DNA from: Eledone cirrhosa
Taxonomy: Eukaryota
Assembly (NCBI GenBank): GCA_964016885.1
Contig: OZ024743.1
Coordinates: 220,162,001-220,226,000 of the forward strand
Reading direction: 5' to 3'
Length of the DNA stretch: 64,000 nt
Numbering within the stretch: position 1 is the first letter of the stretch; the number at the start of each line of letters is the position of its first letter. The notes under the pieces are model-generated. The model saw only the letters and a list, made by a program, of their open reading frames with translations, had not been told where the DNA came from and ran no database searches. The position numbers were made by a program, and so were the translations under genes. Shown here one piece after another: positions 8,602 through 46,778 of this stretch.

Positions 8602-8795
8602 TAGGGACAAGTATGACCCCTCGGCAGAGCTCAAGCCGTTTCGACGGCTAATTCTGGACTGAATTAGCCGCCGAAACGGCTTGAGCTCTGCCGAGGGGCC
8701 ATACTTGTTCCTATTACCCACTCTACTACCCTAAGTATTGAGTACTTTGGTGCGTTATGGTCCATCTGGTTCCTTACCACATTTCCTTCGTTATA
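8602..8795 (+). repeat. Hairpin-plus-tail repeat, copy 1 (about 110 bp palindrome plus about 80 bp tail)
   Basis: 8602-8654 is nearly the reverse complement of 8661-8713. The tail cccactctactaccctaagtattgagtac is shared with 18571-18645 and with the reverse strand of 21813-21890. Flanked by (TA)n. Confidence 0.85.
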
Positions 8796-9499
8796 TATAT
8801 ATATATATATATATATATATATATATATATATATATATATATATATATATATGAAAACAGGGAGAAAGAGACGATTATGAGGAAGAAAAATATATTTCTT
8901 TCCTTTTTTTGTCTCTCTCTCTCTTTTTTCTGGGTTAGAAAATGATTAAAACGAAATGTTTTACTTTGTGTGAAGTGTTAAGGTATTAGTTGATTTATTT
9001 ATTATTTAACAATGTTATTTATTTATCTATTTATATATTTAATTATTGTCTATTACCGGTTTCTGCATTTATATGCATTATCAAATGATAGTGAAATGTA
9101 TTAATGTGGTGTCGCACATGTTAAACAGAAGGTGCAGAAAGAATAATGTTATATACAACCAAGGTTTAAGAAGTGAAAAGAAAAAAGAAAAAGGAAAAAA
9201 AAACGTGCATAATGTGGAACTTAAAAAGTCCGTGCGGAACGAAAGTTAATGTTATTTACAAACACAGTCATTGAAATTAAGCAGTTCAAAATGTGTTAAT
9301 ATCGCAAGAGTGTTTAGTTGAACCATGGTTCCGTGAAGGAGGCAAATGGTGGACTGTGGTTTGATATGATTTCCCTTTTTAGAGAGTTAATATGCAGGGA
9401 GAAGCAATTCTTGCTGGGTGATATTTAATTTATTTAAGAAAAAGGATTAGGTAGGGTGTAAGGGAGGTAACTCTTGTAAATGTTTGATGGTTTGTTGCA

Positions 9500-10635
9500 G
9501 TTTTAGATAGGTCCGAATTTCAGGGCATTGAGTACTGGTTGAAATTTATTAATGAAATGTGTTTACTTATTGGTGCGTTGGATGAAAGTAGCGTTGTCTA
9601 TGAATTTGTGAATGGGGAAAATTTTAAAGTTTGGAAGTTGGTTGAGAGCACAATTGGCGATATGTTCACTAAATGAAATCTTTCTGTATTCCTGTATTTT
9701 AATTTGTGATTTATGTACGGTCATACGTTGATGGAGGCTGTTTTTTGTCTGTCCTATATAGTGCTCTAGACAACCTGAGCAAGTCAAAACATAGATAAGG
9801 TTTTCAGATGCACATGTAAAGTTGTGTTTAACTGTGAAACGTTGTCCTTGTTTAAAATGGAATGTTGAACCTTCTATTAGATTTATGCATATGCCACAGT
9901 TGGGCCTTCCGCATTTTGTTACTGTAGGGTTTATTGTGAAGGTTTGTTGGATTTTGGCTTGTGTGAGGATGTTTTTTATGGATTTGGGTTGTCTTTTGCT
10001 CTTTATGATGTGTGTTTGGAGGATATTGTTCATTCTTGGATCTCTTTTTAGTAAAGGAATGTTCTGGAGGATGGTATCGAATGCCTCATTGTTGAGGGGG
10101 TTGTGTGCGGAGATGTATGGTAGAGTTTTTTGTTGCGGTTCACTCCTGGGTTTGGGTGTCTGAGTTCCTGGATGTCTAGTTTTAGGGCACGTTGGAATCC
10201 ATTGGTGATTAAGGATGGTGGGTAGTTTCTGCTGATAAGTGTGTTTTTTAATTCTTCTAGTCGTGTGTAGCATGTGTATTTATCTGAAACTATTGTGCAG
10301 ATCCTTCTGGCTAGGTTATAAGGAATTGCCATTTTGGTATGTCTAGGGTGGCACGAGTTGAATGGAAGGTATTGTTTGGAGTCTGTGGGTTTGTAGTATA
10401 TGTCTGTTTCTATTTTGTTGCTTGTTTTCTTGATGAGGATGTCGAGGAAAGGGAGTTGTTCATGGCTGTAATCCATTTTGAATTGTAAGTTTGTGTTGAG
10501 TCAATTCAGAAGGGTTTTGAACTCAAACAGTCTATCTATACTTTCATGCCAGAGGATGAAGCAGTCGTCCAGATATCTCTTCCAGTTCTTTTCTATGTGT
10601 TGGTAGAAGTGGTTGCCGTATTTGTCTAGAAGAAC
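9500..10635 (-). mobile_element. Penelope-like element fragment (RT C-terminus plus GIY-YIG endonuclease), frameshifted and 5'-truncated
   Basis: Minus strand near 10545-10590 encodes WKRYLDDCFILW. ORF 10048-10476 has LPFLDI..DIYYKPTD..SCHP..AIPY..ARRI. ORF 9563-10273 has CGRPNCGIC..FTCASENLIYVLTCSGCLEHYIGQT. Confidence 0.88.
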
Positions 10636-11102
10636 CTATCTCCAGCAGTCAGTAGCCTTATACATGATTGCAACGTAAGATTTAGCTAATCTACTACGAA
10701 TCTATGTCGGATGGATTTAACCTGTAATTCAAGATGCAGTCTTGTCACGAATTGCGTCAGGCTGGGCCTTTTTGAGAATTACACTAAGTATAGATATATC
10801 TACGGAATATTCAACCAGTGCCACGTTAATTCATGAGTCGGACGTTCAGTTGTTGGAAAGAGTTAATGCTCTTCGTGGAAATCGACGGAATATCCATAGT
10901 CATAACAATACAACCACGGCATAAGTCAACGAACAACCAACGAACCAACCTGGCAATTATATACCAAACTATTTTAACAGTGATATTGCATGAGTGAAGA
11001 AAAGAGTAATTATGAGACACACCAAGAAGGAAGAATGAACTAAAAATAAATGGAACAACGTTTTGCTCCGATTTTCCAATCTCTGTTGTCCTCTCCGTGC
11101 AC

Positions 11103-43660: not shown

Positions 43661-43754
43661 CATCAATAATGTAGTGATAATATATCGTCACGTTAGAGAT
43701 GAACAGCGTACGTGTAGGTTTGCTCAACGAGTATAAATTATATTCCGTAGAAAA

Positions 43755-45122
43755 ATGGTCGCACATGCAATAGGGGCTAGTATCAAAACTACCCTAAAGG
43801 GCCACATATTTAAGTTCAACGAGAAGATCTACACCCAAAATGAGGGAGCAGCCATCGGCGTCAGCATAGCTGGTGATGTTGCCAACCTTTTCATGGTATG
43901 GTGGGAAAGGAGACTTAAAGATCTCCTTAATGAGAGCTCCATAGACCTCATCATGTACTCTAGTTATGTAGACGATATCAATATAGTTATAAGAACACCC
44001 CCACTAGAGAGCACTAACAAGTTTGATTTAGAACGTAGCACGATGGAAAGCATCCAGCAGATAGCTAATTCCATACACCAGAGTATAACTGTAACTATCG
44101 ACTTCCCTTCCAAACACCCTAACAATAGACTACCTGTATTAGACACAGAACTCTGGATTAACACTATAGACGAGAGAGCCCAAATTCTCCACTCACACTA
44201 TGCTAAACCCATGGCCTCCAAATACCTGATACTCAAAAACTCAGCAATGTCCAGTAGTGCTAAGTTTAATATTCTGATCGTAGATTTTGTACGAGTGATG
44301 AAGAATGTGTCCCGCATGTGCGACCCAACAGAAATGGAAAGACACATCCAACACTTCATCAACCGCATGCAGTTCTCTGGCTACAACCAAAGAGACAGAG
44401 TCAGAGTATACGAAGGAGCCATGGAGAAGTATAAGACCCTCATAGAACTGGACATGAAAGGAATTTGCCCATTATACAGGAGCAAATCATGGAATAGCTT
44501 AGATAGGGCTAGACATAAGATAGGGAAAGCCACCTCATGGTACGACAACCAGAGATACCAGAGTGTCATGTTTGTAGACGCTACCCCTGGAGGGAAATTA
44601 GCTAACCAGTGTAGAAAGGCCCTGAGAAAGACCCACTTAAAAATAAAGGTGGTAGAAAAGCCAGCAACCACCATAAAATCCCTGATCAGCAAAACCTACC
44701 CTTTTAAGAAAACCCACTGTACCAATAGGAAATGTATCATATGTAAGGTGAACCCCCGGATAAACTGTAAAACTAGAAACGTAGTCTATAGCATAAGATG
44801 TACAGAGGGTACTTGCAGAAACATGACAACAACATACATAGGTGAGACAGCTCGTAGCATAGGTGAAAGGATAGACCAACACTGGGGGGAACTAAAAGGA
44901 CGAAAAAACGGATCAGTACTATACGAACATGCTAGACAACAACATGACGGTAACATAGACAACATAGAAATTAGAATAATATCCAAACATAGAAATGACC
45001 CAGCAGATAGGCAAATCAGAGAGGCCAGTGAAATAGAAATTAGAAGACCAAGACTAAACAGAAAGAATGAATGGAATAACAACAACACCCAAACAAACAA
45101 CACTGACCTAAGAGAAGTATAA
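43755..45122 (+). mobile_element. 5'-truncated Penelope-like element, open 455-aa RT plus GIY-YIG fragment
   Basis: YTQNEGAAIG..VANLFM, YVDD, LPVLD, YAKPMAS, RMQFSGY and CTNRKCIIC..CKTRNVVYSIRC..C..YIGETARS..R..QH. Followed by (AAAT)n. Confidence 0.9.
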
Positions 45123-46281
45123 ATAAGTAAATAAAATAAAATAAAATAAATAAATAAATAAATAAATAAATACATACACAAGCACAATAACAACAAGCAC
45201 ATAAACACACACTAGTCACCCATCACACAGCAAACAAAACACTATACACACACGCAAACGCATGCGCAAAGAAGACAAAATAAAATAAACAAACAAGAAA
45301 ATAAATAAATACATATATAGACAGACTGAATAAAAATGGCGTAGACATACAATACAACAGGAGGAAAATATAGCACCACTGGCGATGTTGCAGATGTGCA
45401 ACGAAAGATTTATGATAAACTATATATATGTGTTTGTGTCTATATTGTAACTGTATTATTTTTGACCGTCGGTCAGTCAATGGCAACATTGAGGACCGAG
45501 TAAGTTAGATTACCGATATAAAAGACACAGAAGCGAGAAGCGAAAACCAACCAAACAGTGAGTGTGTTCTGTTATTAATTCTGGCAATATTACACAAATA
45601 TGACCCTCCCCAAGTATAACAATATTTGTTTCGACACACGATTTCATATAAAAAACCTCGCAAAACTAATTCATCGCCGTTATATATATATATATATATA
45701 TATATATATATATATATATATATATATATATATATATATATATATATATATATATATGCGCGTGTGTGTGTGTGTGTGTTATAGAACACCATAAACAAAA
45801 ATACAGAATGACCACTGGGTAGATCCCGGTAAAGTGATCTAAATTTTCACAAGCATCTTAGCCTAAGGGTAGAGTATTAGTTAAACAACCTAAAACTAGA
45901 GGGTTCAACAAAAATTCGCCTTATTGCAGTTTCAGTACTAACCATCTCAATATATTACGGCAATACATTCTATCAGAGGGCTCGATCATCGGAGAGTGTT
46001 CTGATTATTATTATAAGAAAAGGATATATTAACCGGTTGCTGAACAGTATGTGCTCTCATTGAGCCAGCAATACTGCACGCATGCGTAGATCGACCAACA
46101 GTGTAAATATCTCTATTTTCGTTGCGCTCCCAGCTTTAGGTTTCTTAACTACTCCTCGAGTAAGATCGAAGACCCAAACCACTAAACCATATATATATAT
46201 ATATATATATATATATATATATATATATATATATATATATATATATATATATATATATATTAGGTTTGGTGCTCTGAAATG

Positions 46282-46778
46282 TATACATGAATGTATGTAT
46301 AGTATATTTGGCAATATACCGTATGTTTAATTAAAAACACTTTGAAGACCTTGCGCTATCGGTTTTAAAGTACTGACTATGTCACTTACTTCTTTTCGGC
46401 GAAAGAAGGGAGAGAAGCTAACAGTCTGTTTCAAACCTTCTTTAAAACTGATAGCGTATGGTCTTCAAAATGTTTTTAATTAAACCAATCCTAATACCTA
46501 ATTTTTGGTGGACCGGCAATCGCTCTGTATAATAAGCTCCTGGTTATTATTGGAATTCTATAAGAATCCAGCTTCTATAATTTTCAGCGAAAGCAAGGAG
46601 TGCGTGGTTCTGATGATCGCCAACAGCGTGAAACAGACTGTTAGCTTCTCTCCCTTCTTTCGCCGAAAAGAAGTAAGTGACATAGTCACTACTTTATAAC
46701 CGATAGCGTATAGTCTTCAAAGTGTTTTTAATTAAACATACGGTATATTGCCAAATATACTATACATACATTCATATA
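46282..46778 (+). mobile_element. PLE terminal fragment with about 150-bp inverted repeats (46285-46433 / 46629-46778)
   Basis: The arms are reverse complements, a hammerhead overlaps the inner end of the right arm, and (TA)n lies nearby on both sides. Confidence 0.75.
46606..46646 (+). ncRNA. Minimal type-I hammerhead ribozyme
   Basis: gguu CUGAUGA ucgc caaca gcgu GAAA cag a cug UU^ agcu. Confidence 0.78.

What the first reader, a model, noticed from the sequence alone, without database searches (positions are those of the whole stretch)
8602..46778. Fold-back points cluster at the hammerhead GAAA, suggesting hairpin elements arise by snap-back at the ribozyme
Seen: the palindromes at 8602-8713 and 21890-22020 are centred on a stem-loop flanked by TTTC...GAAA. 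The GAAA is followed by sequence like a hammerhead 3' half (GAAAcggTCggagc), but where CUGANGA should be there is the mirror image instead. The inverted arm at 46285-46433 stops exactly at tgtttca, the complement of the hammerhead's tgaaaca. The hairpin at 41531-41676 breaks at GAAAcgattgTA. The solo fragment 35008-35140 begins at helix I. Inference: cDNA stalling in the ribozyme could fold back on helix II and self-prime, converting a pLTR into a MITE-like palindrome. That would be a ribozyme-templated route to genomic hairpins, which I do not recognise as described.
Basis: inference. Interest (0 to 1): 0.75.

Follow-up and report, generated by a model that had tools for sequence, protein, structure and literature searches.

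The report
Penelope hairpins meet at RNA start
These DNA hairpins are back-to-back stubs of Penelope-type jumping genes, and in three families their turning points cluster 18-26 bases before the ribozyme's GAAA, likely because the element's capped RNA starts there and is copied into both ends of a DNA cut, not because the copy snaps back on the ribozyme.

Summary
All five features exist. They are stubs of Penelope-like elements (PLEs): (TA)n, inverted arm, sense arm, tail on one arm. The 8602/21813 family (F1, at least 28,872 tail arms) has a non-palindromic parent (2,218 exact hits): a U3-A8-variant hammerhead beside a Hydra-type RT + GIY-YIG ORF. It is not a DNA MITE.

Clustering is real but not at GAAA: 33 of 686 arm ends lie there. 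F1 ends pile up 10-26 nt upstream (199 of 298), F9 at -25, F4 at -20 to -30; F2, F5 and F7 show no pile-up.

Snap-back on helix II fails. The tail-less arm is the longer one as often as the tailed arm (31 vs 31). Only 1 of 107 pairs reaches helix II's 5' strand. Solo copies stop at the same base.

The pile-ups sit at initiator-like As and carry a non-parental G, often on both arms (C-N-G centre, 15 of 50 F9 palindromes). Best reading: two cDNAs run off the capped 5' end and are joined head to head. No RNA data were available. The scan reported this reading before, on this and other genomes; I retested it here.

The parts
8603..8713 (.). F1 palindrome: tail-less inverted arm reaching -18 (8603-8660) joined to the sense arm starting at -12 (8661-8713); hammerhead GAAA at 8673; predicted cut after 8695
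8714..8791 (+). F1 tail (about 77 nt between the two inferred RT start sites); in a tandem parent it continues into the 5' UTR and ORF
18518..18647 (+). Third F1 copy, shorter, junction 3' of GAAA, same tail
21813..22022 (-). F1 sister-subfamily copy: tail 21813-21889, palindrome 21888-22021; both arms end at -19/-18 (TA overlap at 21954-21955), the predicted RNA start
35010..35140 (-). F4 solo stub with tail; type I hammerhead (3-nt deletion in the core in this copy), GAAA at 35119; starts a few nt downstream of the family's predicted start at -26
41530..41756 (+). F3 hairpin (41530-41676) plus tail; GAAA at 41612; the parent has CTGAGGA and a helix II insert of about 62 nt
46262..46778 (+). 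F2 insertion: tailed inverted arm (46262-46433), a piece of the unit, then a circularly permuted sense copy with an intact hammerhead (core 46610, GAAA 46630); retrozyme-like unit of roughly 340 nt
18721..21777 (-). F8 PLE with inverted pLTRs; the long arm carries the ORF (20065-21498) and lacks the tail; junction far from the ribozyme (counter-example)
26262..28860 (-). F9 PLE with 820-bp inverted arms; the long arm lacks the tail; junction far from the ribozyme; the family used for the cap test

Best explanation
The hairpins are 5'-truncated insertions of Penelope-like elements, likely made when the element's enzyme primes two cDNAs, one from each end of a cut in (TA)n, and both run off the predicted capped 5' end of the element's RNA before being joined head to head. 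Shown here: fixed 3' ends at two sites with a tail on one arm; variable junctions; a sharp wall of 5' ends; an extra non-parental G at the wall, often on both arms; a parent with the full hammerhead and an RT-GIY-YIG ORF; and a tail that continues into the 5' UTR. Inferred: the wall is the transcription start, the G is the copied cap, and the two RT start sites lie 60-140 nt from the RNA's 5' end, so most products are tiny. The ribozyme is near the junction only because promoter and hammerhead overlap in the pLTR: the start lies inside helix II in F1 and at or just before helix I in F9 and F4. Long arms would come from priming in the downstream pLTR.
For: Wall: 199 of 298 F1 arm ends at -26..-10; per-base stop rate 0.114 there against 0.005 just 3' of it and 0.015 just 5' of it; the commonest end is -18. 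Tailed and tail-less arms start 77 nt apart yet end together: 79 of 113 and 93 of 115 in the wall. Solo copies: 38 of the 57 distinct places listed start at the A at -18 (hand count). Extra G in F9, where all 26 longer copies have T at that base: 15 of 16 one-base spacers are C/G and 15 of 50 listed palindromes have C...G on both sides (hand count). Extra G in the F1 AAAT subfamily, parents T in 25 of 25: 20 of 21 one-base spacers are C/G and 4 of 50 are C-N-G. F4 shows the same C-N-G centre at -26. TATTTA begins 29-31 nt before the F1 start in most of 54 parents. Exactly one tail in 103 of 107 pairs; longer arm tail-less 31, tailed 31. Arm ends correlate in F4 (rho 0.64, n 20), F9 (0.65, n 10) and F1 (0.32, n 103) but not in the circularly permuted F2 (-0.06, n 18), which should have no 5' end. 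Literature: a purified PLE cuts and extends both strands from two internal start sites that define the tail, and needs no ribozyme cleavage (PMC11167929, main text); an untemplated G is attributed to cap copying in L1/SVA (PMC3287187, passages); Penelope has an internal promoter (PMC2377424, passages).
Against: No RNA evidence: start site, cap and cleavage are all predicted. An extra C could be an untemplated addition at any template end or strong stop, not a copied cap. F3 arm ends do not correlate (rho 0.10, n 20) and no start was located for it; the F6 and F8 pile-ups (-41, about -105, -112) were not tested for the G. Many F1 ends fall up to 8 nt 5' of -18 or are trimmed to -12, so dispersed starts and end-processing must be assumed. 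The lists are only the first 100 rows, and the spacer patterns select copies that already end near the wall. The 'initiator-like' and 'TATA-like' labels rest on recalled consensus motifs.
Confidence: 0.75

Rival explanations
1. One reading: one cDNA stalls in the ribozyme, folds back on helix II and self-primes the second arm.
For: F1 junctions do lie inside the long helix II region; arm ends are correlated; 17 of 107 junctions have an overlap of 3 nt or more; 5 of 65 F9 ends sit at the helix II TTAA centre.
Against: The tail-less arm is longer in 31 pairs (30 after discounting overlap), and by kilobases in L331, L332, L335 and two window elements; a copy of the tailed arm cannot be longer than it. 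The parent's loop II is almost never kept (1 of 107). 12 blunt and 50 filler junctions; zero-loop and C-N-G centres cannot prime a fold-back. Solo copies stop at the same base.
Confidence: 0.05
2. Two cDNAs are joined, but both stop at a roadblock on a full-length RNA (structure, bound protein, or a U-rich run after a hairpin), not at the RNA's 5' end.
For: The walls lie at or inside ribozyme helices; T-rich runs precede them in F1 and F9; RTs add untemplated bases at stops (own knowledge).
Against: The wall falls on a different structural element in each family; the extra base is specifically G; TATA-like spacing fits a promoter; F2, F5, F7 and F8 pass their hammerheads or stop elsewhere.
Confidence: 0.12
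3. The palindromes are a self-spreading non-autonomous element (a retro-hairpin or DNA MITE) copied as a unit from palindromic masters.
For: Very high copy number; fixed outer ends; some junction words recur.
Against: Junctions vary from copy to copy; each short subfamily has a long parent with the same diagnostic bases; the one-sided tail and the PLE parent exclude a terminal-inverted-repeat MITE; arm-to-arm mismatches show no shared pattern and no A-to-G excess in 29 palindromes.
Confidence: 0.05
4. A minority of stubs run off the ribozyme-cut 5' end instead.
For: 8 of 71 F4 ends at +14..+18 (predicted cut at +12), including co-terminal pairs; 6 of 298 F1 ends at +22..+25.
Against: Small numbers near background in F1; PMC11167929 found uncut RNA to be the main substrate. 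This explains none of the five features in the finding.
Confidence: 0.3

Closest known systems
EN+ PLE insertions with inverted 5'-truncated pLTR and tail (Craig et al. 2021, PMC8557442; Arkhipova et al. 2013, PMC3846280; passages read)
   Same: Inverted truncated copy at the 5' end, tail on one end, partial tandems, (TA)n targets, palindromic junctions.
   Different: Tails here are 34-88 nt (30-40 described) and stubs dominate. Arkhipova 2013 invoked self-priming on an antisense template; the extra G at sense 5' ends and the two-way tail polarity point to two cDNAs from a capped sense RNA.
Hydra clade PLEs (PMC8557442, section 11 read)
   Same: F1 parent has RWR (RWK-like), DKT, a CxCx5C linker, C-terminal GIY-YIG with CxxC/CxH, and inserts in (TA)n.
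   Different: Its hammerhead is non-canonical (U3-A8 or C3-A8 core, 45-50 nt helix II); no tree was built.
PAc Poseidon in vitro (Frangieh et al. 2024, PMC11167929, main text read)
   Same: Two internal RT start sites define the tail; both strands are cut and extended; ribozyme cleavage is dispensable.
   Different: The main text does not describe head-to-head joining or run-off at the cap; different clade; supplements not read.
PLE hammerheads with the U3-A8 covariation (Cervera and de la Pena 2014, PMC4209133, passages)
   Same: U3-A8 core, extra base after position 9, G10.1-C11.1 pair, opposite-strand pairs 100-700 bp apart.
   Different: The F1 motif has a full 5-bp helix III and a much longer helix II.
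Metazoan non-LTR retrozymes (PMC7229834, passages; bioRxiv 10.64898/2026.07.22.740005, part 1 of 5)
   Same: F2 is a short, circularly permuted, tandem unit with one type I hammerhead.
   Different: F2 inserts with PLE-type tail and inverted arms; its RNA circle was not observed.

Membership tests
EN+ Penelope-like element (F1 parent) | ORF with PLE RT and GIY-YIG endonuclease | tested here: met
   YRDD RT core and C-terminal YIG nuclease read by eye upstream of the hammerhead in L331, L332, L336, L340; Pfam gave no hit on 3 of 3 pieces
EN+ Penelope-like element (F1 parent) | pLTR, partial tandem, inverted truncated copy, one-sided tail | tested here: met
   Tandem pLTR-ORF-pLTR in L336; one tail in 103 of 107 pairs, sample partly chosen on the tail
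Hydra clade | RWK, DKT, CxCx5C linker, (TA)n target | tested here: met
   RWR, HSDKT, CNCPDRSSC, against section 11 of PMC8557442
Hydra clade | Canonical hammerhead in the pLTR | tested here: not met
   Core is YUGANAA: U3-A8 in 40 of 54 parents, C3-A8 in 14; CTGANGA search found no parent
Hydra clade | Phylogenetic placement; absence of the CCHH motif by alignment | not tested
   No reference proteins on hand; no tree built
Type I hammerhead (F1 parent) | Three helices around the core, G10.1-C11.1, A15.1-U16.1, UH cut site | tested here: met
   Helix II 54/54, helix III 53/54, UH 53/54, helix I 43/54 (the search pattern fixes part of helix II); 89.5% of cells paired, 4 two-sided changes in 14 rows, most from one subfamily
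Type I hammerhead (F1 parent) | Self-cleavage | not testable with these tools
   Needs an in vitro assay
DNA-transposon MITE | Fixed terminal inverted repeats at both ends, fixed interior, transposase partner | tested here: not met
   One-sided tail, variable centre, retroelement parent
Non-LTR retrozyme (F2) | Short tandem, circularly permuted unit with one type I hammerhead | tested here: met
   Dimers and permuted copies; no wall of 5' ends
Non-LTR retrozyme (F2) | Circular RNA expressed | not tested
   No RNA run was sought for F2

The most novel reading that the evidence does not exclude
Penelope-like elements build their mirror-image ends by double target-primed reverse transcription of one capped sense RNA: each cDNA runs to the cap, adds C plus one base, and the two 3' ends pair or template-jump onto each other (C-N-G centres). 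Tens of thousands of stubs then map each family's transcription start to the base and show that promoter and hammerhead overlap. In F1 the start falls inside helix II, so the 5' ribozyme copy is never transcribed whole and only the 3' copy could cut.
Probability: 0.55. Interest if true: 0.7.

Novelty: new variant of a known kind. Interest (0 to 1): 0.48.

Why it matters
How PLEs form inverted pLTRs, and which RNA strand they copy, is stated as open in PMC8557442 and PMC3846280. The junctions here argue against self-priming and for two cDNAs from a capped sense RNA. They give base-exact predictions (starts at -18, -25, -26; cap-dependent C) that the published in vitro system and 5'-end sequencing can test. 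The elements themselves are ordinary PLE debris.

Tried and rejected
Rfam scan: no hammerhead among the 150 best of 352 matches shown, all below gathering score. CTGANGA within 30 nt of the F1 GAAA: 40 heterogeneous junction fillers, no parent; the real core is YUGANAA about 63 nt away. Pfam missed all PLE ORFs. RNA runs for an F1 parent stretch: no RNA holder listed, which is no evidence either way; nothing was laid. An apparent F3 pile-up at -17 was largely an artefact of a reference with a deletion and is not used. A 52-vs-31 excess of longer tail-less arms vanished with strict calling (31 vs 31), so a 'leading and trailing RT' idea was dropped. Arm-length explanation of the wall rejected: arms starting 77 nt apart end together. 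A-to-I editing or clonal arm asymmetry: none in 29 palindromes. Short hammerheads at 46602 and 35095 do not fold better than shuffles. The middle's output was cut; those F3 loci were read again by script.
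Full report
Setting. The window lies on G000:C4 of a 3.0-Gb, microsatellite-rich genome and holds many retroelement ORFs. All five features exist. Read with their flanks they share one anatomy: (TA)n, inverted arm, junction, sense arm, a tail on one side, (TA)n. Other window elements have it too (18721-21777, 26262-28860, 18042-18510). 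This is the insertion form described for endonuclease-bearing PLEs (PMC8557442, passages). Positions below are relative to the G of the hammerhead GAAA. F1 is the 8602/21813/18518 family, F2 46285, F3 41531, F4 35008; F5-F9 are the other window families (18042, 15329, 45313, 18721, 26262).

Parent of F1. A CTGANGA search within 30 nt found 40 unrelated fillers. Three long copies in hand showed a YUGANAA core about 63 nt upstream. That pattern has 2,218 exact hits, against 28,872 tail-bearing arms. The parent folds as a type I hammerhead with a U3-A8 core (40 of 54 copies; C3-A8 in 14), a long helix II, a 5-bp helix III and a predicted cut GUC|GGGG at +22. U3-A8 is known from schistosome PLEs (PMC4209133, passage). 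Upstream lies an RT plus C-terminal GIY-YIG ORF with Hydra-type motifs. In the tandem copy L336 the tail runs on into the 5' UTR and ORF start.

Where arms end. I mapped arm 5' ends against natural long copies. For F1 I used loci chosen on the tail or at fixed positions plus flanks of other families' loci, and left out loci chosen on the palindrome or on the 5' half (L001-L060, L181-L210, L331-L342). For F2-F9 I used all loci then held; F2-F4 loci were chosen on their 3' part, and the F2 query excludes very short arms. Only 33 of 686 ends lie at -3..+6. F1 has a wall: 199 of 298 ends at -26..-10, a stop rate of 0.114 per base against 0.005 and 0.015 on either side. F9 piles up at -25..-22 (14 of 65), F4 at -30..-20 (22 of 71), F8 at -114..-108 (8 of 22). 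F2, F5 and F7 are spread.

Snap-back test. A cDNA anchored in the target that folds back must be the longer arm and must carry any tail, and folding on helix II keeps loop II at the centre. In 107 strictly called F1 pairs, 103 have one tail; the tail-less arm is longer by 4 nt or more in 31 and the tailed arm in 31; one pair reaches the 5' strand of helix II; 17 have 3 nt or more of overlap, 28 have 1-2, 12 are blunt and 50 have filler. The 8602 copy itself has the tail-less arm longer. In L331, L332, L335 and the two long window elements the tail-less arm carries the ORF. Solo copies stop at the same base: 38 of 57 listed places start at -18 (hand count). Snap-back cannot be the general route.

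What the wall is. Earlier notes of this scan suggested the RNA start; I had not reached that idea before reading them, and then tested it. The walls sit at an A in TTYAGTC (F1), GTTAGTT (F9) and CCATT (F4), which resemble the initiator consensus (recalled). TATTTA starts 29-31 nt before the F1 site in most parents. A copied cap predicts an extra G at the sense 5' end. In F9 the parent base is T in all 26 longer copies, yet among the first 50 of 280 palindromes 15 of 16 one-base spacers are C/G and 15 have C...G on both sides, mostly CAG/CTG. In the F1 AAAT subfamily (parent T, 25 of 25) 20 of 21 one-base spacers are C/G and 4 of the first 50 of 670 are C-N-G. In F4, about 20 of 100 listed arms have G before ATTAC where the parent has C, several on both arms. 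These are hand counts. A G on both arms means each arm reached the end separately. Arm ends correlate in F1, F4 and F9, but not in F2, whose permuted unit has no 5' end, nor in F3, which is unexplained.

Mechanism. Shown in vitro for another PLE: both strands are cut and extended from two internal start sites that bound the tail, without ribozyme cleavage (PMC11167929). Inferred here: when priming uses the sites in the 5' pLTR, both cDNAs run 60-140 nt to the cap, add C and sometimes one more base, and are joined directly or after trimming, microhomology pairing or filler synthesis. Priming in the 3' pLTR gives the rarer long arms. An untemplated G is the accepted cap mark in L1/SVA insertions (PMC3287187, passages), and Penelope has an internal promoter (PMC2377424, passages).

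Literature. Self-priming as the origin of PLE junction palindromes is in print (PMC3846280), without a ribozyme link. Five searches on PLE junctions, promoters and capped templates returned no paper that describes cap run-off or double priming for these junctions; the library is incomplete and supplements were not read.

Verdict. The hairpins are PLE stubs whose centres likely mark the RNA's 5' end. The elements are of a known kind; the junction evidence makes an open mechanistic question testable, but it has no RNA support yet.

Noticed in passing
window 46262-46778; L066, L077, L084: F2 is a retrozyme-like, circularly permuted unit inserted with Penelope-type ends (two 3' ends 34 nt apart, inverted arms), with no 5' wall.
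   Followed up: partly
window 28682-28730 and 26290-26345: The F9 hammerhead-like motif has CAGAAGA in place of CUGANGA (U4A) in all copies matched by the anchor pattern; activity unknown.
   Followed up: no
L200, L206, L209, L332: An F1 subfamily has a mismatched C3-A8 core, possibly a weakened ribozyme that still transposed.
   Followed up: partly
window 21589-21645, 18770-18827, 14745-14798: F8 hammerhead with a 36-nt AT-rich helix II; family ends pile up at -112, far from it; cap test not done.
   Followed up: partly
window 15329-15663, 16331-16553, 25733-25953: F6 pLTR fragments with minimal hammerheads; several copies start near -105 or -41.
   Followed up: partly
L241-L270: Small F4 cluster at +14..+18, just 3' of the predicted ribozyme cut, including pairs that end together.
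   Followed up: partly
L008, L040, L055, L282, L321: Junction fillers copied from neighbouring arm sequence, resembling polymerase-theta templated insertions (recalled).
   Followed up: no
window 54869-58495: Uninterrupted 1,208-aa AP-endonuclease + RT ORF with C-terminal zinc fingers (RTE-like), possibly a young LINE.
   Followed up: no
window 58852-60961: Two long low-complexity ORFs without a Pfam hit, followed by RT-like fragments; possibly a LINE ORF1.
   Followed up: no
window 11560-14015: 2.4-kb compound microsatellite array with a recurring 40-nt unique insert.
   Followed up: no
window 43737-45677 and 48383-48698: PLE of another type (F7) whose hammerhead lies 210 nt from the 3' end; most arms stop before reaching it.
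   Followed up: partly
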